Source: an uncultured Alphaproteobacteria bacterium (lineage in GTDB: Bacteria; Pseudomonadota; Alphaproteobacteria; HIMB59; GCA-002718135). Taken from it: a stretch of 64,000 bases of DNA. Where the stretch lies: the NCBI GenBank assembly GCA_902614375.1, contig CACMKZ010000002.1, positions 14,477-78,476 on the forward strand, written 5' to 3'. Made by a program: the position numbers and the translations under genes. The notes below the pieces were generated by a model. It did not search any database and was not told where the DNA came from. It saw only the letters and a program-made list of their open reading frames with translations. Within the stretch, counting starts at the first letter, position 1, and each line of letters begins with the position of its first letter. This document shows positions 1-27,811 of the stretch, one piece after another.

Positions 1-212
1 TACCTTTACTTATAGGGGGATCAACTATTATCGAACAAGTTTACCAATGGCCAGGAATTGGGAGTATGTTTATTCGCTCTGTGCGCGCTTCTGATTATCC
101 TTTAGTTATGACAATTTCACTAATGTATGTTTTTGTTGTTCTTACAGCAAGTTTAATAATAGATGTTTTAACAGCGTTAATTGACCCAAGAGTTAGGTTA
201 GGAAAAGAATAA
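1..212 (+). CDS. ABC transporter permease, DppB/OppB type (3' fragment; start upstream of window)
   Basis: Frame open from window edge (codons from nt 3) to TAA 210-212. Translation PLLIGGSTIIEQVYQWPGIGSMFIRSVRASDYPLVMTISLMYVFVVLTASLIIDVLTALIDPRVRLGKE is the conserved C-terminus of peptide/nickel-family permeases. Stop overlaps next start (TAATG). Confidence 0.85.
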   Translation, partial: PLLIGGSTIIEQVYQWPGIGSMFIRSVRASDYPLVMTISLMYVFVVLTASLIIDVLTALIDPRVRLGKE

Positions 213-1126
213 TGGCAAAATCTTCACTAGATAAGAAATTTGATCAAATAAGAAAACGTGAAGAGGAAAAAACTTTTTCTACAAAAAAAAGAAGTAGAAT
301 AGTTAATAAATTTTTAAATAACCGTTTAGCGGTTTTAGGTTTAATCATTTTTACAATAATTATTTTAGCTTCTATTTTTGCTCCTCTTCTCTCACCATAT
401 GATCCAATGCGAGTAGATTTACGTTCTATGAGACAACCGCCATCGTTTGATCATTGGTTTGGAACAGATAGTACAGGACGAGATGTGTTTACAAGGGTCT
501 TATTTGGAGGCAGAGTTTCAATATTTATCGGTTTAGGAAGTGCTATTCTATCAGCTGTTGTGGGAATAGCGGTTGGTTGTTACGCAGGATATAAAGGTGG
601 TTGGATTGATGTTATTGCTCTTAGAATTTCTGAAATATTTATGTCTTTCCCTCAAATTATTTTAGTTTTATTACTCGTATCCATCACAGGTCAAAGTTTA
701 TTTAATTTAATGGCTATATTTATCCTTACAGGTTGGGGAGGTATGTACAGGCTTGCTCGAGCTAGAATGTTGTCTTTAAGAGAGGAAGAATATGTTCAAG
801 CACTAAGAAGTTTTGGCTTATCTACATTTACGATATGCTACAAACATATGTTGCCGAATGCATTAAGTCCCATAATGGTCAATATTACTCTATCAACGGC
901 AATGTTTATTTTAACAGAAGCAGGACTAAGTTTTCTAGGTTTAGGGGTACCGTTAAATATTCCTACATGGGGAAATATTTTAAATGTTGCACAAGATATT
1001 TTAATTTTACAAAACTATTGGTGGATGTGGGGACCAGTTGGAATTGTTATTTCAGTTTTTGTTCTTTGTGTTAATTTTATAGGAGATGGTCTACGAGATT
1101 CAACAGATCCATCACAGCAAGGTTAG
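212..1126 (+). CDS. ABC transporter permease, DppC/OppC type
   Basis: 304 aa with multiple hydrophobic spans. OppC-type N-terminal segment (NRLAVLGLIIFTIIILASIFAPLLSPYDP) and typical C-terminal ...NFIGDGLRD. Translationally coupled to flanking transporter genes. Confidence 0.9.
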   Translation: MAKSSLDKKFDQIRKREEEKTFSTKKRSRIVNKFLNNRLAVLGLIIFTIIILASIFAPLLSPYDPMRVDLRSMRQPPSFDHWFGTDSTGRDVFTRVLFGGRVSIFIGLGSAILSAVVGIAVGCYAGYKGGWIDVIALRISEIFMSFPQIILVLLLVSITGQSLFNLMAIFILTGWGGMYRLARARMLSLREEEYVQALRSFGLSTFTICYKHMLPNALSPIMVNITLSTAMFILTEAGLSFLGLGVPLNIPTWGNILNVAQDILILQNYWWMWGPVGIVISVFVLCVNFIGDGLRDSTDPSQQG

Positions 1127-1128
1127 TA

Positions 1129-2142
1129 ATGGAAGATAAAAATAATATAGCGCTTTCAGTTAGAGATCTTAAAACTTTTTTTTATACGAATAATCGATGC
1201 AACAAAGCGGTTAATGGAGTTTCCTTTGATGTTGAAAAAGGTAAAACACTTTGTATCGTTGGTGAAAGTGGTTGTGGTAAAAGTGTTACCGCAGCTACAA
1301 TTATGCAATTACTTCCAACACTATCAAGAATTGAAGAGGGTGAAATTAAATTTCAAAAAGATGATAAAATTATCAATATTGAAAAATTAGAAAAAAATGG
1401 AAAAGAAATGAGGGAGATTAGAGGCTCAGATATTGCAATGATATTCCAAGATCCAATGACAGCACTTAATCCTGTGTACACAGTCGGATTTCAAATAAGT
1501 GAAAATCTTAAGTATCATACTAATCTCAATAAAAAAGAAATAAGGGAAAAGTGTATTTCTCTTCTCAATGACATGGGCATACCACTTCCAGAAAAAAGAG
1601 TTGATGAATATCCTCACAGTTATTCTGGTGGGATGAGGCAAAGAGCAATGATAGCAATGGCCATGGCTTGTAATCCAAAAATATTAATTGCGGATGAGCC
1701 AACAACAGCTCTAGATGTTACAATTCAAGCACAAATATTTGAGCTAATGGATAAATTAAAAAAAGAAAATGATACGGCTATTATTCTTATAACGCATGAT
1801 ATGGGAGTTGTAGCAGAGTTAGCTGATAATGTTGCAGTCATGTATATGGGAAACATTGTTGAAGCTGGAACAGCAGACGATGTTTTAAGACGACCAACAC
1901 ACCCCTATACTAAAGCTCTATTGGAGTCAGTACCTGTACTTGGAAGAGGGAAGAATCAAGATATTAATCCTATTAAAGGATCAACACCTGATCCCTATAA
2001 CAGACCTATTGGTTGTCAATTTGCTCCAAGGTGCAATTGGCAAACAGAAAGTTGTGACGTGATGCCAGAAATCACACAAATAAATGAAACTCACCAAGTA
2101 AGATGTCACAAGTACGAACAATTTTTTGAGAAATATAAATGA
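1129..2142 (+). CDS. ABC transporter ATP-binding protein, DppD/OppD type
   Basis: 337 aa. Walker A GESGCGKS, signature YSGGMRQR, Walker B ILIADEPTTALD, and the oligopeptide/dipeptide-type Cys-rich C-terminal tail (GCQFAPRC...C...C). Confidence 0.92.
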   Translation: MEDKNNIALSVRDLKTFFYTNNRCNKAVNGVSFDVEKGKTLCIVGESGCGKSVTAATIMQLLPTLSRIEEGEIKFQKDDKIINIEKLEKNGKEMREIRGSDIAMIFQDPMTALNPVYTVGFQISENLKYHTNLNKKEIREKCISLLNDMGIPLPEKRVDEYPHSYSGGMRQRAMIAMAMACNPKILIADEPTTALDVTIQAQIFELMDKLKKENDTAIILITHDMGVVAELADNVAVMYMGNIVEAGTADDVLRRPTHPYTKALLESVPVLGRGKNQDINPIKGSTPDPYNRPIGCQFAPRCNWQTESCDVMPEITQINETHQVRCHKYEQFFEKYK

Positions 2143-3146
2143 AAAAAGAGATACTTAAATTACGCGGTGTAAAAGTACATTTTCCAGTACAAGCAGGTGT
2201 GTTTAATCGTGTTGTAGGACATGTTTTGGCTGTTGATGGTGTGGATTTAGATATTTTTAGAGGTGAAGTTTTAGGTCTAGCTGGAGAAAGTGGTTGTGGA
2301 AAGACAACTCTTGGTAAAGCCATCCTAAGATTGGTAGAACCTACAGATGGAGAAGTAAAATATATTTCAAAAGATGATAATGAGACAGAATTAACATCTT
2401 TAGAAAAAAAAGATATGGATCCATTTCGAAAGAAGTTACAAATAGTCTTTCAAGATCCGCACTCCTCTCTTAATCCTTCGTTTACAATTTTTGGCTCGCT
2501 TCAAGATCCATTAAAAAAATTTGGTATAAAATCAAAAGAGGAAAGAAGAAAAATTATTGGTGATCTCCTAGAAGCAGTAAATATGCGCAGAGAATATATG
2601 GATAGATATCCTCACGAATTTTCAGGAGGACAAAGACAAAGAATTGGTATTGTCAGAGCTTTATGTCTTGAGCCGGAACTTATAGTTTGTGATGAAGCGG
2701 TTAGTGCTCTTGATGTATCAATTCAAGCACAAGTACTAAAATTATTAATGCAACTTAAGAAAGAAAAAAATCTAACCTACCTTTTCATTACTCATGATTT
2801 GAGTGTAACAGAATATCTATGTGATCGAATTGCTGTTATGTATCTTGGGAGAATTGTTGAACTTTGTGATTCTGAAGATCTATATAATAATACTCTTCAC
2901 CCCTACTCTGAAGCTTTGATTTCAGCTATCCCAGTTGCAGATCTTGACAAACAAACGAAAAGAATTGTTTTGGAAGGAGATGTACCAAGTCCAGTTAATC
3001 CACCTAAAGGCTGTCCTTTTCATCCTCGGTGTCCTAAAGCAACTGACATTTGTAAAACTGAGGTACCAACATTAAAAAAATATTCAACAAATGGTAATGA
3101 ACACTATGCATCTTGCCACTTAATTGATTTACCCGAAATTAGCTAA
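2139..3146 (+). CDS. ABC transporter ATP-binding protein, DppF/OppF type
   Basis: 335 aa. GESGCGKTT, FSGGQRQR, LIVCDEAVSALD, C-terminal GCPFHPRCP tail. 4-nt overlap with upstream ATPase gene. Confidence 0.92.
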   Translation: MKKEILKLRGVKVHFPVQAGVFNRVVGHVLAVDGVDLDIFRGEVLGLAGESGCGKTTLGKAILRLVEPTDGEVKYISKDDNETELTSLEKKDMDPFRKKLQIVFQDPHSSLNPSFTIFGSLQDPLKKFGIKSKEERRKIIGDLLEAVNMRREYMDRYPHEFSGGQRQRIGIVRALCLEPELIVCDEAVSALDVSIQAQVLKLLMQLKKEKNLTYLFITHDLSVTEYLCDRIAVMYLGRIVELCDSEDLYNNTLHPYSEALISAIPVADLDKQTKRIVLEGDVPSPVNPPKGCPFHPRCPKATDICKTEVPTLKKYSTNGNEHYASCHLIDLPEIS

Positions 3147-4076
3147 ATGTCTAAATATGATCCAAAAGATCTAAATGGTGTTATGCCTGCTATGATCACA
3201 TCGATTAATAAAGATGAAACTATAAACAAGGAAGGTTTAAGAAAAATTATCAATCATTTAATAGCCGAAAATATTAATGGCTTGTACGTAACTGGTAGTA
3301 CAGGTGAAACTTTTTTAATGTCACCAGAAGAAAAAAAAGAAGTGCTTGATATTATTGTTGAAGAAGTAAATGGCAGAGTTCCTGTTATTGCGCATGTTGG
3401 ATCTATTGGAACTAAAATTACAACTGATCTAGCAAAATATGCCACTCATGCTGGAGTCGACGCATTATCAGCATTGCCACCTTTTTATTACAATTTTTCT
3501 AATGAAGAGATTTATAATTATTATAGTGACATAGCTCAATCCTCACATTTGCCAATTATTATATATAATATTAGTCACGCAAATTTGCTGGACATTGATA
3601 TGTTAAAAAGATTGGCCGCTATAGATAATATTAAAGGAGTTAAATATACGGCAGCAACTCATTTTAATTTTGAGAAGATAAAAAAGGAGATTGGAGCATA
3701 TTTTAAAATTTATTCTGGTATGGATGAAATGGCTATCTCTGGTCTGATATCAGGTGCTGATGGTATGATTGGATCGTTTTATAATTTAATGCCAGAAATG
3801 TTTGTAGGAATTTTTCAAAATATGAAAAATGGTAATGTTGTTGAGGCAAAAAAATTACAAGACAAAGTCAATATGATCATTTTGTATGCTTTAAAAAAAT
3901 CAGGTTATCCATTTATTAAAATGGGATTAAGTTGGATGGGAATTGATTCAGGGTATGTAAGGAAGCCTTTTTCAAGTATTGTCAATACAGAGATAGAAAA
4001 GGGAATAAAAGATGATTTAAAAAAATTAATGTCGGAAAATGATCTTTCAGAAATAAAATTTTTAAAAGCATTATAA
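3147..4076 (+). CDS. nanA: N-acetylneuraminate lyase (DHDPS/NanA family class I aldolase)
   Basis: 309 aa, collinear by eye with E. coli NanA along its whole length. Shared blocks: GVMPAM.T, GLYVTGSTGE, IAHVG, ALPPFYY.FS.EE, IIIYNI, Schiff-base Lys context GVKYT, GADGMIGS.YN. Starts 1 nt after the ATPase stop. Confidence 0.85.
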   Translation: MSKYDPKDLNGVMPAMITSINKDETINKEGLRKIINHLIAENINGLYVTGSTGETFLMSPEEKKEVLDIIVEEVNGRVPVIAHVGSIGTKITTDLAKYATHAGVDALSALPPFYYNFSNEEIYNYYSDIAQSSHLPIIIYNISHANLLDIDMLKRLAAIDNIKGVKYTAATHFNFEKIKKEIGAYFKIYSGMDEMAISGLISGADGMIGSFYNLMPEMFVGIFQNMKNGNVVEAKKLQDKVNMIILYALKKSGYPFIKMGLSWMGIDSGYVRKPFSSIVNTEIEKGIKDDLKKLMSENDLSEIKFLKAL

Positions 4077-4084
4077 TTAACTTT

Positions 4085-4759
4085 GTGAAAAAAAATATTT
4101 TAAAAAAATTAAAAAATAAAATCATTGTATCATGTCAGCCTAATGAGGGTGGGCCTCAAGACAAGACGTCTATTGTTGTTTCAATGGCAGAAGCTGCAAT
4201 TATAGGAGGTTGTGGTGGTGTGCGAATTGAAGGAGAAAAAAATATACGAGCAGTCAAAAAAAATATTTCTTTACCAATAATTGGCATAATAAAAAATGAC
4301 TTAGATAACTTTAAAGTTAGAATTACGCCTCTCTTAAAGGATGTCGATAAAATTATTAATAGTGGTGCAGATATAATAGCATATGATGCCACAAATAGGA
4401 AAAGGCCTTTTCCAACAAAAGAAATTATTTTAAAAATTAAAAAAGCAAATCGTTTAGCTATGGCAGATTGCTCAAATTTAGATGATGCTAAAAAAGCTAT
4501 TTTAGAGGGTGCGGATATTATTGGAACAACACTTGCTGGCTATGTTGGTAAACAAGTGAAAGATACGGATAAACCAAATATAAAATTAATTAAAGAATTT
4601 AAAAAACTTAATTGCTTTGTAATGGCTGAAGGTCGTTACAACACTCCAGAGCTTGCAAAGCAAGCTGTACAAGCAGGAGCAGATGCAGTTACAATTGGAA
4701 GTGCTATTACGCGTATTGATAATATTACGAGTTGGTTTGTAAAAAAAATTAAAAATTAA
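4085..4759 (+). CDS. nanE: N-acetylmannosamine-6-phosphate 2-epimerase
   Basis: 224 aa, GTG start. Blocks IVSCQP, GVRIEG, LPIIGIIK.D, RITP, GADIIAYDAT.R.RP, LAMADCS, GADIIGTTLAGY, MAEGRYNTPE and AVTIGSAITR match E. coli NanE order and spacing. Confidence 0.9.
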   Translation: MKKNILKKLKNKIIVSCQPNEGGPQDKTSIVVSMAEAAIIGGCGGVRIEGEKNIRAVKKNISLPIIGIIKNDLDNFKVRITPLLKDVDKIINSGADIIAYDATNRKRPFPTKEIILKIKKANRLAMADCSNLDDAKKAILEGADIIGTTLAGYVGKQVKDTDKPNIKLIKEFKKLNCFVMAEGRYNTPELAKQAVQAGADAVTIGSAITRIDNITSWFVKKIKN

Positions 4760-4760
4760 A

Positions 4761-5642
4761 ATGAATAAAAAAATATTTAACAAATCAGGTATCGCAATTG
4801 ATTTTGGAGCAACTAAGATATCAGTATCTCAAATAATTAAAGGAAAGTTTAAAAAAACTATTACTGAGCCAACTTCAATACATAAAATAGCAAATAATTA
4901 CATTCAACAAATTGAAAAAAATATTAAAAACTTAAATATATCTAAATCTAAAAAAATAGGCATTGCTATTACAGGAAGGGTTGACCAATACGGAAATTGG
5001 TACCCAGTAAATAAAGAAAATTTAGGAAATTTCAAAATACCCCTTAAAAAACTTATAGAAAAAAAATTTAATACAGCTTCTACAATAATAAATGATGCAA
5101 CAGCTGCAGCTTTGGGAGAAGCAAATTATGGAAAAGGTTTTAAATACAAACGTGTGGGATATATTACAATTTCAAGTGGTATAGGAGTTGGTGTAATTTT
5201 AAACAATAAACCTCTTCTCTCAGAAAATGGATTAGCAGGACATTTAGGATTTACAACTTCAACGTTAGCAAAAACAAAATGTGGGAGTGGTAGAATTGGA
5301 ACTTTTGAAAGTATCGCTTCTGGTAAAGCAATGAGTAAAATTGCTAAACAAAAAGGTCATAAAAATATTAGTGCTAAAGAAATTTTTAAGCTTAGTTTTC
5401 AAAATAAAAAATGGGCAAAAGAAATAATCGATCTATCTGCCAAATCTGTCTCAGAACTGTGTGCAAATTTGAAAGCTATATTTGATATAGACATAATTAT
5501 TCTTGGTGGAAGTATTGGAATGGCACAAGGATATGTAGAGCTCGTAAAAAAAAATTTGAAAAAAGAACCTAAATTGTTTCACATAAAAGTAGTAAAGTCA
5601 TCTCTTGGAGTAAAAGCATCAAAAATGGGTGTTTTGCTATAA
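4761..5642 (+). CDS. nanK: ROK-family sugar kinase, N-acetylmannosamine kinase-like
   Basis: 293 aa. IAIDFGATKI, INDATAAALGE, GIGVGVI and GLAGHLGF are collinear with E. coli NanK. The ROK zinc motif is degenerate (CGSGRIGT instead of CxCGxxGC). Position after nanA-nanE supports the call. Confidence 0.75.
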   Translation: MNKKIFNKSGIAIDFGATKISVSQIIKGKFKKTITEPTSIHKIANNYIQQIEKNIKNLNISKSKKIGIAITGRVDQYGNWYPVNKENLGNFKIPLKKLIEKKFNTASTIINDATAAALGEANYGKGFKYKRVGYITISSGIGVGVILNNKPLLSENGLAGHLGFTTSTLAKTKCGSGRIGTFESIASGKAMSKIAKQKGHKNISAKEIFKLSFQNKKWAKEIIDLSAKSVSELCANLKAIFDIDIIILGGSIGMAQGYVELVKKNLKKEPKLFHIKVVKSSLGVKASKMGVLL

Positions 5643-5692
5643 ACACAAGAAACTGATTGTGCTTTTAATGAAAATTGCATAGGTTAATTAAA

Positions 5693-9388: not shown

Positions 9389-9389
9389 T

Positions 9390-10310: not shown

Positions 10311-10311
10311 T

Positions 10312-11852: not shown

Positions 11853-11865
11853 AATTTAATAAAAT

Positions 11866-11917: not shown

Positions 11918-11948
11918 TTTTCTTAATTAAATTATAAATCATAAGAGA

Positions 11949-12791: not shown

Positions 12792-12793
12792 TT

Positions 12794-20983: not shown

Positions 20984-21006
20984 AAAAATTTAAAAAAGGA
21001 GAGAAT

Positions 21007-21396: not shown

Positions 21397-22677
21397 TTAA
21401 AAATAAGTTAATATTCCATCAAGAACATTATAGTCTTCATCAACAACTGGAATAAACTTCCATTTATCAAATGCTGTGCATGGATGTGAAATACCAGAAC
21501 AAATCATATCCCCTACCTGCCATTGATGATTATCAGCAAGTTTAACAAAGGCATGCTGATCATTTGTGCTAAATATTTCTGCTTCACCAATATCTAAGAA
21601 ACCTTCACCAGGTCTAAATCTTTTTATTGGTTTTGGTAAACCTGAATCATATGGAGCATCTCGTTTTCCCATAGTTAGAAAAGCAAGATTATTTTCAGGA
21701 ATGGATTGTACATAGGACCAAATTTCAAGAGCTGGTTGCAGAGATTGATCCCATTGTCTATTGGAATCACTTTTAGCTGTCTCAAGTGCATCCAAATAAG
21801 GTCCATGATCATGTGTAATATAACATCCGCTTCGTAATAGTACTTTAATTGGAACACTAAGTTTAATTTTTGAAAATCTTTCCCCCACAATATCAAAATG
21901 AGTTGATCCACCAGCAGTAATTAATAATTCATTTAGATGAGAGTAATAATTTGAAGGAATATCATTAATAATATCTTCAATCTTTGAACAAAAATCATGC
22001 ACAGCATCTGATCCTTTCATTGCTACAGCTGCTATACCCTCGTATGAAGAAATACCTGCGAAAGTAAAATTCTTTGATGAATCCTCTCCAATTATATTAA
22101 CAAGTTTTAAAAAAACTTCTTTTTTGCGTATACCTGTCCGTCCATTTTCAGCACCTACTTCGGGCAATAAATTTATTGGATTGGTTAAATTTTGATCACC
22201 AAGATTTTTTTTTATATTTGAGAACTGCTCAATTGAATCAACAAAACAATAGAAAGAAAAATTTTTATTTTGATTAATATATGATGCTATTGTTTCTAAA
22301 TGTGATTTACCTAAAAGTTGATTAGCAAGTAAAACTTTTTTTATACCAAAATCAAACATAACTTGAATTTGATTAATAGCACCAGCTGTAATGCCCCATG
22401 CTCCATGTTTTATCTGCTCAGAAAAAATCTGAGGGGCCATGGTAGTTTTACCATGAGGAGCAATATCTAGATTGTGTTTTTCTAAATAATTAGAAAAAGT
22501 TTTTAAATTATGAAGATAATTTTTTTGTTTTAATACCATTAATGGCATAGGCATATCTTCCTTCAAAATATTCCATTTTTTATTTTTTAATTCTTTTAGT
22601 GGAAATGGTTCACTTGAACCTGGAATACCTTTGGTTCGCCTATCTAAAATAGTATTTTGAATTTCACTTAAATCCAT
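21397..22677 (-). CDS. Fold-type III PLP enzyme, D-serine dehydratase-like / D-threonine aldolase-like (alanine racemase N-domain family)
   Basis: 426 aa. PLP-Lys context APHGKTTMAP, and a C-terminal D-Ser-dehydratase-like domain (..GISHPCTAFDKW..). Its stop abuts the ridA stop with 0 nt between them. Confidence 0.72.
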   Translation of the reverse strand: MDLSEIQNTILDRRTKGIPGSSEPFPLKELKNKKWNILKEDMPMPLMVLKQKNYLHNLKTFSNYLEKHNLDIAPHGKTTMAPQIFSEQIKHGAWGITAGAINQIQVMFDFGIKKVLLANQLLGKSHLETIASYINQNKNFSFYCFVDSIEQFSNIKKNLGDQNLTNPINLLPEVGAENGRTGIRKKEVFLKLVNIIGEDSSKNFTFAGISSYEGIAAVAMKGSDAVHDFCSKIEDIINDIPSNYYSHLNELLITAGGSTHFDIVGERFSKIKLSVPIKVLLRSGCYITHDHGPYLDALETAKSDSNRQWDQSLQPALEIWSYVQSIPENNLAFLTMGKRDAPYDSGLPKPIKRFRPGEGFLDIGEAEIFSTNDQHAFVKLADNHQWQVGDMICSGISHPCTAFDKWKFIPVVDEDYNVLDGILTYF

Positions 22678-23501
22678 TAAGAATTAATTTCTTCAAACTG
22701 ACTAACTAAATTCTCTGCATAATCAGATAATGCAATTACATCAGCACCAATATTTAGAAGATTGTATCCCATATCAATATAATTTTTTGCAACTCCGGGT
22801 CCACCTGGAGTAGCTGCAATTTTATTATTTTTTCTTGCTACTTCTGCAACTCTTTTTCTTGCACTTACAACATCAGGATGATCCATTTGACCTGGAACAC
22901 CTAGTGAAAGAGAATAATCTCCAGGCCCAAAAAATAGTGCATCTACACCTTCCATTTCAGCAATGGCTTCGACATCATTAATTACTTCAGGTGTTTCAAT
23001 CTGATAGATTACTAATCTTTCTTGATTAGCTTGTTTAATATACTCTGCCATATCAAGCTTTGTATATTTTCCATCATTGTTACCACCATCAACTCCTCTT
23101 TTGCCAATAGGAGGAAATTTTGTAAACTCCTCAATCTCTTTCGCATCTGCTAAACTTTTTATTTGAGGTATGATTAATCCCGTACAATCAACTTCTAAAC
23201 CTCTAATATAATTACTGTAGCTACCTCTATTAACACGAAGAAGAGAGTCAACATCATATATCTTAGCAGCATTACTCTGATTTTCAGCTTGATTGTAATC
23301 AAGTGATCCATGTTCCATACAAAGCCAGATGGCATCTGGTTGTGCTAAGGCAAAAATTTCTGCTACTTTAATATCAACTGTGTTGCATTTTAATATTGTT
23401 GCAACTTTCCCTGCACTAGTCTTTCTTTTTACTCTGCTCTTTCGAAAGGTGTTAAATGGTTTTTTTCCATTATTTGTTGTTGTTTCATCATATTTAGTCA
23501 T
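22677..23501 (-). CDS. HpcH/HpaI-family class II (metal-dependent) 2-oxoacid aldolase
   Basis: 274 aa. LCMEHGS, LLRVN, GLIIPQI.S...A, FPPIGKRG, IYQIET and GPGDYS blocks are typical of HpaI/GarL/YfaU aldolases. Confidence 0.8.
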   Translation of the reverse strand: MTKYDETTTNNGKKPFNTFRKSRVKRKTSAGKVATILKCNTVDIKVAEIFALAQPDAIWLCMEHGSLDYNQAENQSNAAKIYDVDSLLRVNRGSYSNYIRGLEVDCTGLIIPQIKSLADAKEIEEFTKFPPIGKRGVDGGNNDGKYTKLDMAEYIKQANQERLVIYQIETPEVINDVEAIAEMEGVDALFFGPGDYSLSLGVPGQMDHPDVVSARKRVAEVARKNNKIAATPGGPGVAKNYIDMGYNLLNIGADVIALSDYAENLVSQFEEINS

Positions 23502-23516: not shown

Positions 23517-24308
23517 TTATTTTGCAGTATATCCACCATCAACAGCAATAATTGTTCCAGTCAAATAAGCTGATGAGTCTGATGCTAAAAAAATTATTGG
23601 GCCTTTTAAATCAGTACTATTAGCCATTCGTCCTAGCTGGGTTCTTTTACTATAATTTTCAACAAATCTGTCTGGATGAGAAGGAACTTTAAATCCTCCT
23701 GGAGCTAAACAATTTACTCGAATATTAAAAGGACCTAACATACTTGCTGCCCATCTTGTAAAATTGTGCATGCCTCCCTTTTCATAAAAATATAATGGAG
23801 AAGTAGCAGGGGTGAAGTCTGTACCTTCATAATTACCATTTTCTACACCAACAGTACCCATCATTGATCCAATATTTATAATAGATCCAGATTTATTTTT
23901 TTTCATTCCTTCAGCAAACATATTTGTAATTTTAAATAATGCTGATGCATTTATTCTTAAACTTTTATCAAAGTCATCTAGACTATTGTCCCAACCTAGA
24001 CTGCCATGCTCTCTGGAAACTGCATTATTTATCAAGACATCACATTTTCCACTTTTCTCAATAATGTCATTGTATAATTTTTCGATTGAGTCATCCTGAG
24101 ATAAATCTAATTGTAATGCAGTAACTTTATAGCCTCGTTTTGTTTCTTCTTCTGCTACTTGTTGTAAACTTTCAAAATTTCGTGAAGCTATATATGTATC
24201 TGCTCCAGCTTCAGCTAATGCTTCCACTATTTGTCTCCCGTAAAGTCCAGCACCTCCAGTAACAAGTGCAACTTTACCTTTTAAAGAAAAACTTTCTAAA
24301 ACATTCAT
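23517..24308 (-). CDS. Short-chain dehydrogenase/reductase (SDR)
   Basis: 263 aa. VTGGAGLYG, NNAV, a Y-x3-K in YFYEK, C-terminal VDGGYTA. Confidence 0.8.
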   Translation of the reverse strand: MNVLESFSLKGKVALVTGGAGLYGRQIVEALAEAGADTYIASRNFESLQQVAEEETKRGYKVTALQLDLSQDDSIEKLYNDIIEKSGKCDVLINNAVSREHGSLGWDNSLDDFDKSLRINASALFKITNMFAEGMKKNKSGSIINIGSMMGTVGVENGNYEGTDFTPATSPLYFYEKGGMHNFTRWAASMLGPFNIRVNCLAPGGFKVPSHPDRFVENYSKRTQLGRMANSTDLKGPIIFLASDSSAYLTGTIIAVDGGYTAK

Positions 24309-25268
24309 CTAACTAACCTCACTTAAATTAATTTTAATTCCACCCTCTTCTCTACTCTTTATACCAGCAGCAACAAGTTGCATTAATTCTTTGGTTTCCT
24401 CCCATGCAACTGGTTTTACACCTGTTCGTAAATAATGAACATATGACTCTAATTGTTTTTTAAATGCATAAAAAGTATCATTTGATTTTATTTGTATTCC
24501 ACTTTTAGTTCCAACTAAAGAAACAAGACCAAAACCTCCAATCATATCAAAGACATTAGCAATATTGATATCAATACCTTTTGAATGATGTAAATGAACA
24601 ATATTTCTATCTTTATCTCCTAGATTTTGTATTGAGGTAAAGCCTGGACCAACAATTGGATATAATGTTTCTAAAGCGTGTATCCCATATTTTTCCCAAC
24701 TTTTTGCCATAGTGACATTAATGTATCTTAAATCACCTAGTTCGTAAGTTGATTGATGGTATGGCTCGTACTCTTTACAATATCGCATTGCAGAAGAACT
24801 AATTATCGGCTTTCCTTCATCAATCCACTGTTGAAAAATTTTTAGATCAGTAAAATTATCGCATAATGGTTTATCAACAAAGATTGGTACATTTGCCTCA
24901 ACGAATGATTTACACCTCTCAACATGCTCTGAACCAATATCAGTTGCAACTAAAACTGCATCGACTTGTCCAATCACATCTTTTGGATCTTCAACAATAT
25001 TTTCAATTTCTGCAACTTTAGCGACAAGTTTTGCATCCTCAGGATTATCTGTCCATACATGTGAAACTTCTACATCTTTTATACCTAGGGTATTTTTTGG
25101 TTGCTTTGAAATATAATCAATAATTGCTGCATAAGGACATTGTGCTAATGCTTCAGCGTTATATCGACCGTTAATAATTATACTCCATGAGTAAGGATGT
25201 CCATTTCCTTCCGTCATTCCTAGCATTGCTAATTTGATTTTTTTATTTTCTATGGGAAACTGAGTCAT
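24309..25268 (-). CDS. Gfo/Idh/MocA-family oxidoreductase
   Basis: 319 aa. N-terminal Rossmann-like region and FVDKPL (a variant of the family EKP motif). Abuts the SDR gene with 0 nt. Confidence 0.7.
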   Translation of the reverse strand: MTQFPIENKKIKLAMLGMTEGNGHPYSWSIIINGRYNAEALAQCPYAAIIDYISKQPKNTLGIKDVEVSHVWTDNPEDAKLVAKVAEIENIVEDPKDVIGQVDAVLVATDIGSEHVERCKSFVEANVPIFVDKPLCDNFTDLKIFQQWIDEGKPIISSSAMRYCKEYEPYHQSTYELGDLRYINVTMAKSWEKYGIHALETLYPIVGPGFTSIQNLGDKDRNIVHLHHSKGIDINIANVFDMIGGFGLVSLVGTKSGIQIKSNDTFYAFKKQLESYVHYLRTGVKPVAWEETKELMQLVAAGIKSREEGGIKINLSEVS

Positions 25269-25281
25269 TAATTAATATCAC

Positions 25282-26061
25282 TTACCACGCTGTCCAACCA
25301 CCATCAACTATAAGTGAATGACCCGTCATATAACTTGATGCATCAGATAAAAGAAAAATTGTTGGTTTTGCGGTTTCGATAGGTTTACCGAAACGTTTTA
25401 ACATTGTAGAATTTTTTAAATTACTCAAAAATTTTTTATTATTATTTGCAGCCTTAGTTATGTTTGGAAAAGGTCCAGGTACAATTGCATTAATACGAAT
25501 ATTATTTTTACCATAATATGAGGAAAAATATTTTACCATTTGGTTTAGACCAGCTTTTCCAGCACCATATTCTACAGGATTAGGATTAATATTTTTTGGA
25601 TACATTTCCATTTTTGGCGATACTAATCCATACATTGAAGCAAACATTACGATACTTCCACCTTTTTTCATTTTATTTGCAACACCTCTCATAAGTAAAA
25701 AAGAACCTGTTAAATTAATTTGATTAGCTTTATTAAATTTTTCTGCAGTTAATTCTGATAGTTTATCTGAAGTTGATCCAAATGTTGCATTAACTAATCC
25801 ATCTATGTATTTAAATTTTTGATAAGCTAATTTAATATTTTTAGAAATAGATTTAGGATCAATCATATCTAAGTGAGAAAATATAATTTTACTCTTGGGA
25901 TATTTTTTTTGTAATTTTTTTATTACTAATTCAGATCTTTTGATGTCTTGGTCAGCTAAAAATAAATTTCCGTCTAGTTTCAATATTTCTTCACATAAAA
26001 CTGAACCAAGATATCCACTACCTCCAGCAATAAAAATATTTTTATTTTTCAAACTAATCAT
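25282..26061 (-). CDS. Short-chain dehydrogenase/reductase (SDR)
   Basis: 259 aa. IAGGSGYLG, catalytic YGAGK, C-terminal VDGGWTA. Confidence 0.8.
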   Translation of the reverse strand: MISLKNKNIFIAGGSGYLGSVLCEEILKLDGNLFLADQDIKRSELVIKKLQKKYPKSKIIFSHLDMIDPKSISKNIKLAYQKFKYIDGLVNATFGSTSDKLSELTAEKFNKANQINLTGSFLLMRGVANKMKKGGSIVMFASMYGLVSPKMEMYPKNINPNPVEYGAGKAGLNQMVKYFSSYYGKNNIRINAIVPGPFPNITKAANNNKKFLSNLKNSTMLKRFGKPIETAKPTIFLLSDASSYMTGHSLIVDGGWTAW

Positions 26062-26062
26062 A

Positions 26063-27067
26063 TTAACTGATTTTAATTATTTTTTTATTTTTCCAAGACG
26101 ATTTAGCAGCCAATACAACTTTTAAATTTAAATAAGCTTCTTCTAAAGTTGCTAAGTCACAATCCTTACCTTCATAACCATCTAAAAATCTGTTTGCCTG
26201 TAAAAGAAAATTATTTTGATGTACTTCCATTGGATCTTGACCTTTCATATAATCTTTTTGATCTTTCCAAACACCACTATCATCATCAGCAAACATTAAA
26301 GTAGAATGATCAAGTTTTATATTACCTTTAGTGCCAACAAACTCATATGTATTAATATTTGGTTTCTGAAATTGATTAACAGTTATATTGGCTAAACATC
26401 CATTAGAAAATTTTATATTAATAAGACAAGTATCCTCAGTTTCTGTTCCCTCTAATACTAATCTGTCGTACATACATCCTACCTCTTCAGGAATACCCAA
26501 TATCCAAATTAATTGATCAATCATATGAGTAGAAGCATCAAGAATGGCTCCGCCTCCGGTTTCTTCTTTTGCATAATAAATAGTTCGATAATCTGGCCTA
26601 TATTTAGGAAACTCTTGAGAAGAATTAATATAAGCTAATTTAACGTCACCAATTTTATTATTCATAATTTGATCTTTTAAGGCTCTGGAGACTAAGCTAT
26701 TTCTTCTTGTATATCCTACACGAACAAATAATTTTTTTTCTCTGACCTCTTTTATAATGTTTTCCAGACCATCAATTTTTGTAGAAAGAGGTTTTTCTAC
26801 CATAAATGATAGATTATTTTTTATACAAAACTGCATATGTTCCATATGCCAATTAGCTGGTGAACATATTATTGCTAGATCAAATTTTTGATTAACGTCA
26901 TCAAGAGAATTAAATGTATGTTGAATTTCAAATTCACTATTTAAGTTTTTTTGTTTATTAACATCTGGTTCAACAATAGAAATTTTAGCTCTGCTAGTTC
27001 CCAAATAACCTTTAATATGTCTTTTACCAATTCCACCTGCTCCAATTATTAAAATATTATAAATCAT
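26063..27067 (-). CDS. Gfo/Idh/MocA-family oxidoreductase
   Basis: 334 aa. IIGAGGIGKRH Rossmann motif, MVEKPL family motif, C-terminal alpha/beta domain. Confidence 0.8.
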   Translation of the reverse strand: MIYNILIIGAGGIGKRHIKGYLGTSRAKISIVEPDVNKQKNLNSEFEIQHTFNSLDDVNQKFDLAIICSPANWHMEHMQFCIKNNLSFMVEKPLSTKIDGLENIIKEVREKKLFVRVGYTRRNSLVSRALKDQIMNNKIGDVKLAYINSSQEFPKYRPDYRTIYYAKEETGGGAILDASTHMIDQLIWILGIPEEVGCMYDRLVLEGTETEDTCLINIKFSNGCLANITVNQFQKPNINTYEFVGTKGNIKLDHSTLMFADDDSGVWKDQKDYMKGQDPMEVHQNNFLLQANRFLDGYEGKDCDLATLEEAYLNLKVVLAAKSSWKNKKIIKIS

Positions 27068-27154
27068 TATTTATATAAAACTAACTTGACCACTTTATAA
27101 TAGTATGATGTTATATGAATAAGTAAATTGATAATATAAATAAATTCAAAAAAA

Positions 27155-27811
27155 ATGGCTCTTAATTTTGAAGAATATAAAACGAAACTTTATTCAGCTG
27201 TATTAGCTGATACATTAGATAGTTTGGGTTATCATAAACAAACATTAACGCCTGGTATCAAATCAATAAAACCAGATGTAATTATATGTGGGCTTGCGAG
27301 AGTTGGTTTGTATATGCCTATTTATCATGATGATGAAAATACAAATGTTTACGAACATGAAATAGCATTGATTGATAGTTTAAAAGAAAATGAAATTGCT
27401 GTTTTATGTTGTCATGGAAATGAAAAGATAGCTCCATGGGGAGAATTATTATCAACTCGCGCAACTTATCTAAAATCAGCAGGTTGTTTAACAGATGGTT
27501 GCGTTCGTGATACAAAAATGATTAATGAAATTGGTTTTCCAGTTTTTGCAAAAGGCACTAATCCTGTTGATACAAAATTTAGAGGTAAAATGATGATGGC
27601 AGATGTGCCAGGCGAAATAGCAAATGTCTATGTTGAAAGTGGAGATTTGGTATTTGGCGATAATGATGGTGTTGTTATTGTACCATCTAAAGTTATTGAT
27701 GAAGTAATAAGAAAAGCTCTAGAAAAAGTAAGTAGTGAAAATACTGTTAGAGATGAACTAAAAAAAGGTGATAGTTTAACTGCCGTATTTGAGAAACATA
27801 AAATTTTATAA
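27155..27811 (+). CDS. RraA-family protein (4-hydroxy-4-methyl-2-oxoglutarate aldolase / oxaloacetate decarboxylase-like)
   Basis: 218 aa. GCLTDGCVRD, FPVFAKG.NP and GDLVFGDNDGVVIVP are typical of the RraA/HMG-aldolase fold. Confidence 0.8.
   Translation: MALNFEEYKTKLYSAVLADTLDSLGYHKQTLTPGIKSIKPDVIICGLARVGLYMPIYHDDENTNVYEHEIALIDSLKENEIAVLCCHGNEKIAPWGELLSTRATYLKSAGCLTDGCVRDTKMINEIGFPVFAKGTNPVDTKFRGKMMMADVPGEIANVYVESGDLVFGDNDGVVIVPSKVIDEVIRKALEKVSSENTVRDELKKGDSLTAVFEKHKIL

What the first reader, a model, noticed from the sequence alone, without database searches (positions are those of the whole stretch)
1..27811. 28-kb regulator-less accessory island rich in 2-oxoacid C-C lyases and built from paralog pairs
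Seen in sequence: 31 consecutive genes end at the core gene ispE. I recognise no transcription factor, sigma factor, riboswitch-sized leader, integrase, transposase or tRNA among them. The block has six aldolase-type proteins: NanA, DapA-like, HpcH/HpaI, RraA-like and two PanB-like. It also has three PLP enzymes plus RidA, and three Fe/2OG dioxygenases. There are five sets of local paralogs: PhyH/PhyH, PanB-like/PanB-like, BNR/BNR, 3-Cys/3-Cys, and SDR-Gfo/SDR-Gfo. Established knowledge: streamlined marine oligotroph genomes carry few paralogs and few regulators, and concentrate strain-specific functions in hypervariable islands. Inference: this is likely a hypervariable-region-type catabolic island for a complex nitrogenous glycan or glycopeptide substrate. 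The unusual paralog density suggests recent local innovation. The left border lies outside the window.
Basis: partly seen in the sequence, partly recalled or inferred. Interest (0 to 1): 0.6.

Follow-up and report, generated by a model that had tools for sequence, protein, structure and literature searches.

The report
Fixed sialic-acid-type catabolic cluster, regulator lost
This block is a roughly 31-kb set of nutrient-degrading genes, probably for sialic-acid-like amino sugars, that is stably inherited in a group of tiny ocean bacteria (AEGEAN-169/HIMB59) and has lost its own regulators, so it is not a fast-changing strain-specific island.

Summary
The gene inventory is correct: 30 complete genes plus a partial oppB lie before ispE. 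There is no regulator, tRNA, Rfam RNA or mobility gene, coding density is 98.9%, and the longest intergenic gap is 96 bp.

The organism is not SAR11 proper. It belongs to AEGEAN-169 / order HIMB59, genus AG-337-I02.

The block is accessory only at order level. One related lineage has ispE directly abutting the ATP-ligase that flanks the island's left side here, which marks a clean ~31.4-kb, 33-gene presence/absence.

Within the genus the block is fixed. All 15 informative species representatives, plus a sister lineage, carry the right half at ispE in the same order. Composition matches the flanks, and the paralogs are old (18-53% identity).

A much more distant lineage (IspE 49%) has the cluster at the same site. 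Devosia rhodophyticola carries both halves as one cluster with GntR-type regulators, so the regulator-less state is a derived loss.

The content (SBP_bac_5 ABC importer, NanA with sialate-lyase residues, NanE, NanK, NagA-like, plus a conserved oxidative/deaminating aldolase set) points to catabolism of sialic-acid-like nonulosonic acids.

The truly hypervariable spot in this window is 34.9-43.8 kb.

The parts
1..211 (+). 3' end of the oppB-like permease gene. The cluster continues about 3.5 kb upstream of the window with FA_hydroxylase, SBP_bac_5 and OppB.
   Evidence: Window 1-14076 aligns collinearly to L011 6855-20930 at 98.9%.
212..1126 (+). OppC-type ABC permease
   Evidence: BPD_transp_1 and OppC_N domains; 73% identical to the Devosia cluster.
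1129..2142 (+). OppD-type ABC ATPase
   Evidence: ABC_tran and oligo_HPY domains; 76% identical to Devosia.
2139..3146 (+). OppF-type ABC ATPase
   Evidence: ABC_tran and oligo_HPY domains; 79% identical to Devosia.
3147..4076 (+). NanA, N-acetylneuraminate-lyase-type class I aldolase
   Evidence: NF003164 scores 290.4 against a cutoff of 281. Best PDB hits are all NanA, E 3e-54. The GSTGE motif, the Tyr and Lys of the active site, the D-E pair and GSxYN all align.
4085..4759 (+). NanE, ManNAc-6-P 2-epimerase
   Evidence: PF04131 E 7e-74. NF002231 scores 282.6 against a cutoff of 189. Absent in lineage L042.
4761..5642 (+). ROK-family sugar kinase (NanK-like) with no DNA-binding domain
   Evidence: ROK E 2e-48. 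The best NCBIfam match is N-acetylmannosamine kinase at 211.5 bits, below the cutoff of 283.
5675..6994 (+). Class-III (GSA-aminomutase-like) aminotransferase. It is a conserved neighbour of NanA in every lineage examined.
   Evidence: It sits next to the NanA-like gene in L042, L044 and Devosia.
6991..8478 (-). M81/MlrC-family metallopeptidase-like protein
   Evidence: DUF1485 and MlrC_C domains. PDB 3iuu E 1e-32 and microcystinase C E 6e-20.
8471..9388 (-). Second DHDPS-family aldolase. It keeps the Tyr and Lys but lacks GSTGE and the D-E pair.
9390..10310 (-). Class-IV (branched-chain / D-amino-acid type) aminotransferase
   Evidence: 65% identical to Devosia.
10312..11091 (-). PhyH-family Fe/2OG dioxygenase 1
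   Evidence: 52% identical to PhyH2.
11088..11852 (-). PhyH-family Fe/2OG dioxygenase 2
   Evidence: The pair is also present in L042 and L044.
11949..12791 (+). PanB-like protein 1 (not bona fide PanB)
   Evidence: panB scores 95 bits against a cutoff of 207. Its ortholog in L044 is 79% identical.
12794..13639 (+). PanB-like protein 2, an old paralog that is absent from L044
   Evidence: 53% identical to PanB1 but 62-64% to the PanB-like gene near ispE in L041.
13640..14452 (+). PhyH-family dioxygenase 3
14483..15562 (+). BNR_2 sialidase-fold beta-propeller 1, with no signal peptide
   Evidence: The best PDB match is the uncharacterised Dfer_1899, followed by sialidases.
15571..16896 (+). MFS transporter
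16901..18019 (-). BNR_2 beta-propeller 2, a presence/absence polymorphism within the genus
   Evidence: Present in 9 and absent in 4 species representatives.
18031..18543 (-). hyp1, a small Cys/His-motif protein whose true start is probably at 18516
   Evidence: No Pfam hit. The family has 212 clusters; C84, Y101, H104 and C105 are invariant and C102 and C132 nearly invariant. AF2 pLDDT 92.9, with weak similarity to the Bet3/YslB/MopR-sensor fold.
18513..19013 (-). hyp2, a remote paralog of hyp1
   Evidence: hhalign probability 97.5%, E 7e-12.
18970..20148 (-). NagA-like amidohydrolase (N-acyl amino sugar deacetylase type)
   Evidence: TIGR00221 scores 200.8 against a cutoff of 225.65; 50% identical to Devosia and 82% to L045.
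20219..20983 (+). SDR1, glucose-1-dehydrogenase-type
   Evidence: NF005559 scores 226.6 against a cutoff of 215.
21007..21396 (+). RidA enamine/imine deaminase. The 23-bp gap upstream is where other lineages carry a 331-aa GntR-HTH protein.
21397..22677 (-). Fold-type III PLP D-amino-acid dehydratase/ammonia-lyase-like enzyme
   Evidence: PF14031; PDB 3gwq E 3e-81.
22677..23501 (-). HpcH/HpaI class II 2-keto-3-deoxy-acid aldolase. Three allele classes have been swapped gene-precisely.
23517..24308 (-). SDR2
   Evidence: 69% identical to Devosia.
24309..25268 (-). Gfo/Idh/MocA oxidoreductase 1
   Evidence: 64% identical to Devosia.
25282..26061 (-). SDR3
   Evidence: 51% identical to Devosia.
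26063..27067 (-). Gfo/Idh/MocA oxidoreductase 2
   Evidence: 56% identical to Devosia.
27155..27811 (+). RraA-like (HMG-aldolase / oxaloacetate-decarboxylase family) protein. This is the right-hand end of the cluster.
   Evidence: It is 61-69% identical to alphaproteobacterial homologs and lies next to SBP-OppBCDF-NanA in Devosia and L050.
27806..28639 (-). ispE, the core gene at the right border (not part of the cluster)

Best explanation
The block is the larger part of a ~31.4-kb, 33-gene catabolic gene cluster. The window holds 30 complete genes plus the oppB 3' end. FA_hydroxylase, a signal-peptide SBP_bac_5 binding protein and the rest of OppB lie just upstream of the window. The organism is an AEGEAN-169 / order-HIMB59 bacterium of genus AG-337-I02. 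The cluster sits between an ATP-dependent DNA ligase and ispE.

Evolutionary status (shown). The cluster is old in this order and inherited with the chromosome. It is fixed and collinear across the species of the genus. It is missing from the same site in some other lineages, most simply by loss. It is tuned only by small events: BNR2 present or absent, NanE-NanK present or absent, a second PanB-like gene, a lactonase gene, and gene-precise swaps of the HpcH aldolase allele. It is therefore not a hypervariable region.

The same enzyme set and transporter are clustered in Devosia rhodophyticola in a different arrangement. This shows that the two halves of the island form one functional unit. 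Devosia has a GntR/FCD regulator and a 331-aa protein with a GntR/HutC-type HTH. A deep HIMB59-order lineage still has the 331-aa gene between SDR1 and RidA. The window's genus has neither. The regulator-less state is thus a secondary loss, consistent with genome streamlining, and expression is presumably constitutive or under global control (inferred).

Mechanism (inferred from families and conserved neighbourhood).
1. The Opp-like ABC system imports a sialic-acid-like nonulosonic acid or a small glycoside of one.
2. The cytoplasmic BNR propellers may release the monosaccharide.
3. NanA cleaves it to pyruvate plus an N-acyl hexosamine.
4. In this genus NanK and NanE feed that product to GlcNAc-6-P, and the NagA-like enzyme then deacetylates it.
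5. A parallel non-phosphorylative branch is conserved even where NanE and NanK are absent. It oxidises the N-acyl hexosamine (SDR/Gfo, plus a lactonase in some lineages) and deacylates it (NagA-like).
6. The fold-III PLP lyase with RidA then eliminates ammonia, and HpcH splits the resulting 2-keto-3-deoxy acid to pyruvate plus an aldehyde.
7. The aminotransferases, M81 peptidase, PhyH dioxygenases and PanB-like, RraA-like and DHDPS2 lyases would handle further amino or N-acyl substituents.
For: Identity and taxonomy.
- ispE loci come from AG-xxx SAGs, including AG-337-I02 and AG-891-K05.
- Papers assign these to order HIMB59 / AEGEAN-169.

Fixed within the genus.
- 15/15 species representatives have RraA..hyp1 in the same order at 94-100% aa identity.
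- Sister lineage L038 also has it.
- Collinear gap-free DNA alignments reach 94-99%.
- As an internal contrast, in the same genomes the stretch after the MTase has at least 5 configurations.

Clean empty site.
- In L039, ispE overlaps the stop of the ligase, which is 77% identical to the ligase left of the island (RMMBL 86%, Lhr 84%).

Old and vertical.
- L045-47 (IspE 49%) carry the right half at ispE.
- Island proteins diverge at about 0.6 times the rate of flanking core proteins at both depths. Against L038 the divergence is about 7% versus 11%, and against L045 about 22% versus 37%.
- Tetranucleotide distance to the core is 0.15-0.20 for island chunks versus 0.11-0.17 for core chunks. Codon-frequency correlation is r=0.983, and GC3 is 0.165 versus 0.183.

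One functional unit.
- The Devosia cluster has NagA-like | SDR, 331-aa, RidA | esterase, DSD, HpcH, SDR, Gfo, SDR, Gfo | RraA, GntR+FCD, SBP, OppBCDF, NanA-like, AT-III..., AT-IV, at 46-79% identity.
- L050 has BNR_2, RraA, SBP-OppBCDF and NanA-like together.

Regulator loss.
- The 331-aa protein matches the HutC/GntR HTH at E 3e-7 (Devosia) and 4e-6 (L045).
- In the window, SDR1 and RidA are only 23 bp apart.

Substrate class.
- NanA passes the NCBIfam equivalog cutoff, and its sialate-lyase residues are conserved in all five cluster NanA-like proteins.
- NanE passes its cutoff; NanK and NagA are best hits just below theirs.
- The SBP_bac_5 ABC architecture is the same family as the Neu5Ac transporter SatABCD.
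- RidA sits next to a PLP dehydratase-type enzyme and an HpcH aldolase.
Against: - No experiment or ligand data exist, so substrate identity is inferred.
- The BNR proteins are closest to an uncharacterised structure and are not shown to be sialidases.
- The SBP is closer to peptide-binding proteins (E 2e-22) than to SatA (E 2e-8).
- NagB was not found in the window.
- NanE and NanK are absent from the L042 lineage and from Devosia, so classical Neu5Ac catabolism is not the conserved core.
- Roles for M81, PhyH x3, PanB-like x2, DHDPS2, hyp1/2 and RraA are guesses.
- Left-half conservation across all species of the genus was seen only in 5 SAGs plus metagenome contigs found by an exact NanA match.
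- Vertical inheritance with loss, versus same-site transfer, is argued from parsimony and proportional divergence, not from a phylogeny.
- HpcH allele A is 93% identical to that of the distant L045 lineage, which shows that some inter-lineage exchange does occur.
- No fragment recruitment was run here. The published recruitment on AG-891-K05 lists only LPS, 'no determined function', P and Phn islands, without coordinates.
Confidence: 0.6

Rival explanations
1. The block is a hypervariable, strain-specific island of a streamlined oligotroph, whose paralog pairs reflect recent local duplication and innovation.
For: - The block is absent at the same site in two related lineages.
- It contains small polymorphisms: the BNR2 indel and the HpcH allele swaps.
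- It has several same-family gene pairs.
Against: - It is present and collinear in 15/15 species representatives and in a sister lineage, with core-like identity.
- It has no compositional signature.
- The paralogs are 18-53% identical, and the individual copies have separate orthologs in Devosia or other lineages.
- A real hypervariable spot with at least 5 configurations lies 7 kb away in the same genomes.
Confidence: 0.05
2. The genus acquired the cluster fairly recently by horizontal transfer from another marine alphaproteobacterium (a Devosia-like donor). It only looks native because it has ameliorated.
For: - Identity to Devosia is unusually high for a cross-order comparison (OppF 79%, OppD 76%, RidA 75%, RraA 69%).
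- Distribution inside the order is patchy.
- HpcH allele A is 93% identical to that of a distant lineage.
Against: - GC3 is 0.165 against a core value of 0.183, and codon-frequency correlation is 0.983.
- The cluster is at the same ispE junction in a lineage whose IspE is only 49% identical.
- Island-to-core divergence ratios are similar at two depths.
- There is no integrase, tRNA or repeat at either junction.
- An ancient transfer into the ancestor of the order cannot be excluded and is compatible with the best explanation.
Confidence: 0.1
3. The cluster degrades a peptide-like or D-amino-acid-containing compound (peptidoglycan fragments, an opine or Amadori-type conjugate) rather than a nonulosonic acid. 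On this reading the NanA-family enzyme acts on another 2-keto-3-deoxy acid.
For: - The Opp/Dpp-type ABC system has an SBP closest to peptide- and opine-binding proteins.
- The cluster includes an M81/MlrC peptidase-like protein, a class-IV aminotransferase of the D-amino-acid/BCAA type, and a D-amino-acid dehydratase-like PLP enzyme with RidA.
- In a Kordiimonadaceae contig, M81, RidA and RraA form an operon without NanA.
Against: - All cluster NanA-like proteins keep the residues that bind the sialate glycerol tail in E. coli NanA.
- NanE and NanK are inserted directly after NanA in two lineages.
- NagA-like and sialidase-fold proteins co-occur with it.
- The sugar oxidoreductase and lactonase content also points to a sugar substrate.
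Confidence: 0.2
4. There is no single pathway. Several unrelated small operons have accumulated at a recombination-permissive site next to ispE.
For: - The block has seven alternating transcription blocks.
- Individual genes come and go between lineages (NanEK, PanB2, BNR2, SGL, the 331-aa gene).
- The neighbourhood between the SH3_4 gene and ispE differs among lineages.
Against: - Both halves co-occur, rearranged, in Devosia.
- RraA, SBP-Opp, NanA and BNR co-occur in L050.
- This kind of neighbourhood conservation across orders is not expected for unrelated operons.
Confidence: 0.1

Closest known systems
Canonical bacterial sialic acid (nan) utilisation clusters: NanA-NanK-NanE with NagA/NagB, a dedicated transporter such as the SBP_bac_5 ABC system SatABCD (ST3), and a regulator (PMC2693436, PMC8461474)
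   Same: - A NanA lyase with conserved catalytic and sialate-binding residues.
- NanE.
- A ROK kinase with best match to NanK.
- A NagA-like deacetylase.
- An ABC importer of the same SBP_bac_5/PepT superfamily.
- Sialidase-fold proteins nearby.
   Different: - It has no NanR-type regulator and no NagB in the block.
- The SBP is only distantly related to SatA and is circularly permuted.
- NanE and NanK are dispensable across lineages.
- About 20 extra conserved enzymes have no role in the textbook pathway (Gfo x2, SDR x3, HpcH, fold-III PLP lyase, RidA, RraA-like, two aminotransferases, M81, PhyH x3, PanB-like x2, DHDPS2, hyp1/2).
- The host is a free-living oligotrophic marine bacterium, not a mucosal one.
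Uncharacterised orthologous cluster in Devosia rhodophyticola (CP118247.1, about 341.9-362.5 kb) and related Alphaproteobacteria
   Same: The transporter and enzyme families are the same, at 46-79% identity. Each SDR and Gfo copy has its own ortholog there.
   Different: - The arrangement differs: RraA and the transporter follow the oxidoreductase block.
- Devosia has GntR/FCD and 331-aa GntR-HTH genes, a CE7-type esterase and a ureidoglycolate-lyase-like gene.
- It has no NanE or NanK in the stretch seen, and its GC content is much higher.
- The middle genes (M81, PhyH, PanB-like, BNR, MFS, hyp1/2) could not be checked because the locus is cut.
Flexible or metagenomic genomic islands of SAR11 and HIMB59 (for example the LPS, phosphate and phosphonate islands of Molina-Pardines et al. 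2023, PMC10734472)
   Same: The block lies at a conserved chromosomal position bordered by the same core gene in several lineages of the order. It is present or absent among lineages, and there is some allele replacement inside it.
   Different: Gene content does not vary among close relatives, and composition is not atypical. It is not listed among the islands found by recruitment on AG-891-K05, a genome that carries the block.
Non-phosphorylative sugar-acid pathways ending in an HpcH-family 2-keto-3-deoxy aldolase, and amino-sugar-acid ammonia-lyase chemistry (glucosaminate-type)
   Same: The enzyme logic is dehydrogenase, then lactonase, then elimination, then class II aldolase. A RidA is paired with a PLP elimination enzyme.
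   Different: The PLP enzyme here is a fold-type III, 3gwq-like protein with no known substrate. No step has been demonstrated, and the resemblance rests on family-level inference only.

Membership tests
nan (sialic acid catabolism) cluster | N-acetylneuraminate lyase with a Schiff-base Lys, a catalytic Tyr, the GSTGE motif and the sialate-binding D-E/S residues | tested here: met
   NF003164 scores 290.4 against a cutoff of 281. The alignment to E. coli-type NanA structures conserves all these positions. TIGR00683 is not reached (249 against 382).
nan (sialic acid catabolism) cluster | ManNAc kinase (NanK) and ManNAc-6-P epimerase (NanE) adjacent to NanA | tested here: met
   NanE scores 282.6 against a cutoff of 189. 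The ROK protein's best match is ManNAc kinase, but it is below the cutoff (211.5 against 283). Both genes directly follow NanA.
nan (sialic acid catabolism) cluster | GlcNAc-6-P deacetylase NagA and GlcN-6-P deaminase NagB | tested here: inconclusive
   The NagA-like protein scores 200.8 against a cutoff of 225.65. No NagB family hit occurs among the 30 genes. The rest of the genome was not available.
nan (sialic acid catabolism) cluster | Dedicated regulator (NanR, RpiR or GntR type) | tested here: not met
   No HTH protein is in the block or just upstream. GntR-type genes are present in the Devosia and L045 versions.
nan (sialic acid catabolism) cluster | GH33 sialidase | tested here: inconclusive
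   There are two BNR_2 propellers with Asp-boxes. The best PDB match is the uncharacterised 5hx0, and sialidases match mainly through Asp-boxes. No FRIP motif is evident on reading the sequences.
ST3 SatABCD sialic acid ABC transporter | SBP orthologous to SatA, with its Neu5Ac-binding residues | tested here: inconclusive
   The Pfam family is the same, but the match to SatA (5z99/5za4/5yyb) is only E 2e-8, against 2e-22 to peptide-binding proteins. The domain order is permuted.
Hypervariable region / metagenomic island of streamlined marine bacteria | Gene content differs among close relatives at the same locus | tested here: not met
   15/15 species representatives and other SAGs are collinear. 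The only variants are a one-gene indel and one gene's alleles. The adjacent 34.9-43.8 kb stretch does show this behaviour.
Hypervariable region / metagenomic island of streamlined marine bacteria | Under-recruitment of metagenomic reads relative to the core | not testable with these tools
   Only indirect evidence is available. The exact RraA protein occurs in 169 sample blocks. 90%-identity cluster sizes are similar for RraA (791) and IspE (641). The published recruitment on AG-891-K05 names no such island.
Mobile genomic island (integrative element) | Integrase or transposase, a tRNA or direct-repeat border, atypical composition | tested here: not met
   None was found. The junctions are 57 bp on the left and a 6-bp gene overlap on the right.

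The most novel reading that the evidence does not exclude
The cluster encodes a so-far uncharacterised pathway, widespread in Alphaproteobacteria, for nonulosonic acids or N-acyl amino sugars. Uptake uses an ABC system whose cluster-C binding protein is circularly permuted. NanA-type cleavage is followed by a non-phosphorylative branch: N-acyl-hexosamine dehydrogenase, (lactonase), NagA-like deacylase, a fold-III PLP ammonia-lyase with RidA, and an HpcH aldolase. A new Cys/His metalloprotein pair (hyp1/hyp2) also takes part. In AEGEAN-169 this pathway takes up about 31 kb of a streamlined genome and runs with no dedicated regulator. Together this would make AEGEAN-169 an unrecognised sink for sialic-acid-like compounds in the surface ocean.
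Probability: 0.3. Interest if true: 0.65.

Novelty: new variant of a known kind. Interest (0 to 1): 0.45.

Why it matters
AEGEAN-169/HIMB59 bacteria are abundant in surface oceans, and published comparisons stress only their broader sugar use. I found no paper linking them, or SAR11, to sialic acid catabolism.

A fixed 31-kb locus is a large investment for a streamlined genome. It predicts a concrete phenotype, growth on or uptake of sialic-acid-like nonulosonic acids. This can be tested in cultivable Devosia and, if they carry the cluster, in AEGEAN-169 isolates.

The comparison with Devosia and a deep HIMB59 lineage gives a clear case of regulator loss from an otherwise conserved catabolic cluster, which bears on how streamlined cells control expression.

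The case also shows that large blocks which are accessory at order level can be core at genus level. 'Island-like' gene content alone therefore does not identify hypervariable regions.

Tried and rejected
- Sigma-70 promoter and intrinsic-terminator scans over 1-36 kb gave counts at shuffle level (91 vs 100.5; 82 vs 88.8; terminators 10 vs 9.2 and 11 vs 6.0) and were not used.
- A palindrome search in the three divergent intergenic regions found no arms of 6 nt or more.
- Single-sequence AF2 of hyp1 was poor (pLDDT 54.5). The alignment-based model was good (92.9), but Foldseek against PDB gave only weak matches (best E 7.5e-3, TM about 0.5; Bet3/TRAPP, YslB, MopR sensor). I treat this as a lead.
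- A profile of the hyp1 family found nothing meaningful against PDB sequences. Six of 35 members hit PF14196 ATC_hydrolase weakly (best E 0.0068).
- Plasmid tblastn for the DSD-like protein, hyp1 and RraA found only distant homologs or none. The one RraA hit (Chelatococcus, 48%) lies in an unrelated context.
- The last PDB sequence search, for SDR1, used too strict a cutoff. It could not test similarity to N-acylmannosamine 1-dehydrogenase.
- The last exact-match look-up, with BNR1, returned only contig NODE_4 of AG-913-M07. That contig differs from the window at the variable spot, so the window's exact source genome was not identified.
- Literature searches for nonulosonic acid catabolism in marine bacteria, and for glucosaminate ammonia-lyase with RidA, gave nothing directly relevant.

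Full report
**Observation.** The window has about 30% GC. From position 1 to 27811 it holds the 3' end of an oppB-like gene and 30 complete genes, followed by ispE.

In order, the genes are:
- OppC, OppD, OppF.
- NanA, NanE and a ROK kinase.
- A class-III aminotransferase.
- An M81/MlrC peptidase-like protein.
- A second DHDPS-family protein.
- A class-IV aminotransferase.
- Two PhyH dioxygenases, two PanB-like proteins and a third PhyH.
- A BNR_2 propeller, an MFS transporter and a second BNR_2 propeller.
- Two small proteins with no family.
- A NagA-like amidohydrolase.
- An SDR and RidA.
- A D-Ser-dehydratase-like fold-III PLP enzyme.
- HpcH/HpaI.
- SDR, Gfo, SDR, Gfo.
- An RraA-like protein.

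There is no tRNA, no Rfam family, and no HTH, sigma, integrase or transposase domain. Coding density is 98.9% and the longest intergenic gap is 96 bp. The ROK protein is a kinase-only form.

The paralog pairs exist but are old:
- PhyH1/PhyH2: 52%.
- PanB1/PanB2: 53%.
- BNR1/BNR2: 26%.
- SDRs: 28-29%.
- hyp1/hyp2: 18-25%, with hhalign probability 97.5%.
- Gfo1/Gfo2: no BLAST hit.

**Whose genome.** Loci recovered with IspE come from GORG single-cell genomes such as AG-913-M07, AG-337-I02 and AG-891-K05. AG-337-I02 is the GTDB genus name for an AEGEAN-169 / order-HIMB59 group. AG-891-K05 is the reference genome of genomospecies GCA002718135-1.A of that order. The host is therefore the former 'SAR11 clade V'. 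It is streamlined and low in GC, but it is not Pelagibacterales proper.

**Borders.** SAGs that carry the identical NanA show what lies left of the window. The order is Lhr helicase, an RMMBL protein, an ATP-dependent DNA ligase, then FA_hydroxylase, an SBP_bac_5 binding protein and OppB, running into window position 1.

In L039, a relative with 67% IspE identity, ispE directly overlaps the stop of the orthologous ligase (ligase 77%, RMMBL 86%, Lhr 84% identical). Relative to that genome the block is a clean insertion or deletion of about 31.4 kb and 33 genes, from FA_hydroxylase to RraA. It corresponds to window coordinates about -3548 to 27811. No repeats or mobility genes lie at the junctions. 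Another relative, L041 (65%), lacks both the block and the Lhr-ligase module.

**Variable or fixed.** All 15 that extend past ispE carry RraA, Gfo2, SDR3, Gfo1, SDR2, HpcH, DSD, RidA, SDR1, NagA-like, hyp2 and hyp1 in the same order. Their identities are 94-100%, the same range as the flanking core genes.

A sister lineage with 85% IspE also has the block. Its island proteins are 89-97% identical, against 85-95% for the core. Other SAGs align to the window without gaps: 98.5% over 21 kb, 98.9% over 14 kb, and 94.3% over 17 kb for AG-891-K05.

Composition does not set the block apart:
- Tetranucleotide distance to the core is 0.15-0.20 for island chunks and 0.11-0.17 for core chunks.
- Codon-frequency correlation is 0.983.
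- GC3 is 0.165 versus 0.183.

The same genome set provides an internal control. The stretch between the N6-methyltransferase and MatE (window 34.9-43.8 kb) occurs in at least five configurations, and homology with the near-identical SAG AG-913-M07 stops at 34913. The published read recruitment on AG-891-K05 reports only an LPS island, one island of undetermined function, and phosphate and phosphonate islands.

**Deeper history.** Contigs L045-L047 belong to a far more distant lineage of the same order (IspE 49%, with identical flanking synteny). They carry the right half at the same ispE junction, with two extra genes. One is an SGL lactonase between RraA and ispE. The other is a 331-aa gene between SDR1 and RidA.

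Island proteins diverge at roughly 0.6 times the rate of these flanking core proteins at both depths. Against L038 the figures are about 7% versus 11%, and against L045 about 22% versus 37%. This fits co-divergence with the chromosome. It implies loss in the L039 and L041 lineages, whose core identities are intermediate.

Lineages L044 and L042 (NanA 76% and 73%) carry the left half in the same order behind FA_hydroxylase, with different genes upstream. L044 has a single PanB-like gene, and L042 has no NanE or NanK. PanB2 is closer to a PanB-like gene near ispE in L041 (62-64%) than to PanB1 (53%).

Within the genus there are two micro-polymorphisms. BNR2 is present in 9 and absent from 4 species representatives. 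HpcH occurs as three allele classes 72-75% apart, which replace each other exactly at the gene boundaries. Allele A is 93% identical to that of the distant L045 lineage.

**One unit, and where the regulators went.** The RraA-like protein has homologs at 61-69% identity in cultured and uncultured Alphaproteobacteria.

In Devosia rhodophyticola the neighbourhood reads as follows, at 46-79% identity to the window proteins:
- NagA-like.
- SDR, a 331-aa protein, RidA.
- An esterase, DSD-like, HpcH, SDR, Gfo, SDR, Gfo.
- RraA, GntR plus FCD (called as two ORFs), SBP_bac_5, OppBCDF, NanA-like, a class-III aminotransferase, a ureidoglycolate-lyase-like protein and a class-IV aminotransferase.

A third lineage, L050, has BNR_2, RraA, SBP-OppBCDF and NanA-like together. 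Both halves of the island therefore belong together. The SDR/Gfo pairs predate the split between these organisms.

The 331-aa protein of Devosia and of L045 matches the HutC/GntR winged-helix model at its N-terminus (E 3e-7 and 4e-6). The window's genus has only 23 bp at that position. The regulator-less state is real, and it is a loss.

**What it does.** These steps are inferred.

The NanA protein passes the NCBIfam N-acetylneuraminate-lyase cutoff. All its best solved relatives are NanA (E 3e-54). The GSTGE motif, the catalytic Tyr and Lys, the D-E pair and the GSxYN serine are conserved in all five cluster NanA-like proteins, including those from lineages without NanE and NanK.

NanE passes its cutoff. 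The NanK-like and NagA-like proteins are best hits just below theirs. The importer belongs to the SBP_bac_5 family, which includes the Neu5Ac transporter SatABCD, but its match to SatA is weak. The BNR proteins have the sialidase fold and Asp-boxes, but they are closest to an uncharacterised structure.

I therefore favour the following route:
1. A sialic-acid-like nonulosonic acid, or a small glycoside of one, is imported.
2. NanA cleaves it to pyruvate plus an N-acyl hexosamine.
3. That product is processed either by NanK, NanE and the NagA-like enzyme, or by a conserved non-phosphorylative branch.
4. The branch consists of SDR/Gfo oxidation, a lactonase in some lineages, NagA-like deacylation, ammonia elimination by the 3gwq-like PLP enzyme with RidA, and HpcH aldol cleavage.
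5. The aminotransferases, M81, PhyH, PanB-like, DHDPS2 and RraA-like proteins may deal with further amino or N-acyl substituents.

A peptide or D-amino-acid conjugate remains a serious rival substrate.

**Comparison with what is known.** The block works like a nan cluster with a large uncharacterised extension. It is not a textbook nan operon: it has no regulator, no NagB, an uncertain transporter and an uncertain sialidase. It is not a hypervariable or mobile island either.

I found no paper that links SAR11 or AEGEAN-169 to sialic acid catabolism. I rate it a new variant of a known kind and of moderate interest.

Noticed in passing
window 34900-43690 (between the N6-methyltransferase at 33833-34903 and MatE at 43782-45095): This is the real hypervariable spot of the window. 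Here it holds a His_Phos-like gene, a Peripla_BP_6-like binding protein, a ShlB/FhaC TpsB (560 aa) and a 1746-aa TpsA with FG-GAP repeats. Among the species representatives and SAGs, at least 5 different configurations occur: the full set, the set without His_Phos, His_Phos-MatE, MatE directly, and an autotransporter. The stretch is compositionally deviant (tetranucleotide distance 0.22-0.29). It may be the 'island of no determined function' reported for AG-891-K05.
   Followed up: partly
L011:4386-6032 (about 2.5 to 0.8 kb upstream of window position 1); also L048:11625-13202: The cluster's SBP_bac_5 binding protein looks circularly permuted. After the signal peptide it begins with the 'DPRVRQAL..AID' motif, and residues about 40-250 match the C-terminal lobe of canonical family members. 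Residues about 300-540 match the usual N-terminal lobe. The same order is found in the Devosia ortholog (61% identical), so it is not an assembly artefact.
   Followed up: partly
window 22677-23501: The HpcH aldolase exists as three allele classes 72-75% apart in an island that is otherwise 96-100% identical. DNA identity drops to about 70-77% exactly over this gene and recovers on both sides. The window's allele is 93% identical to that of a lineage whose IspE is only 49% identical.
   Followed up: yes
window 16901-18019: The second BNR_2 gene is a single-gene presence/absence polymorphism. Where it is absent, the MFS gene abuts hyp1 directly. It is present in 9 and absent from 4 species representatives, and present in 3 and absent from 5 other contigs.
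   Followed up: yes
window 18031-19013: hyp1 and hyp2 belong to a small family (212 clusters at 50% identity among 1.84 billion proteins). C84, Y101, H104 and C105 are invariant and C102 and C132 nearly invariant. Some homologs are about 320 aa long, with two matching stretches in some, which may be fused pairs. The AF2 model is confident (pLDDT 92.9) but matches the Bet3/YslB/MopR-sensor folds only weakly. Six of 35 members hit PF14196 ATC_hydrolase weakly. Homologs start at residue 10 of the listed ORF, so the true start is probably at 18516.
   Followed up: partly
L045:2793-3788 and L048:1652-2647 (the position equivalent to the window gap at 20984-21006): A 331-aa protein has an N-terminal GntR/HutC-type HTH and an unassigned C-terminal region of about 250 aa. 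It is present in Devosia and in a deep HIMB59-order lineage but deleted in the window's genus. It is a candidate cluster regulator with a new effector domain.
   Followed up: partly
L011:1-3248 and L039:10824-15811 (left of the island): The Lhr helicase, RMMBL nuclease-like and ATP-dependent DNA ligase module is itself variably present. It is absent next to ispE in L041. The neighbourhood between an SH3_4 gene and ispE differs in every lineage examined.
   Followed up: no
L011:6033-6100: A strong GC-rich hairpin followed by a T-run (AAAGCTGAGGCATACGCCTCAGCTTTCTTTTTTT) lies between the binding-protein gene and oppB. This is typical of partial termination that gives excess binding-protein mRNA.
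   Followed up: no
window 11853-11948: The longest intergenic region (96 bp, between the divergent PhyH2 and PanB1 genes) contains the inverted pair ATGGTAA ... TTACCAT, read by eye from the printed sequence and not picked up by the short-loop palindrome search. Its conservation was not tested.
   Followed up: no
whole window versus L002/L021/L051 (AG-913-M07 NODE_4): The window is not identical to any contig in the collections. The only exact BNR1 match is AG-913-M07, which is 98% identical over the island at the DNA level but carries different genes at the variable spot.
   Followed up: partly
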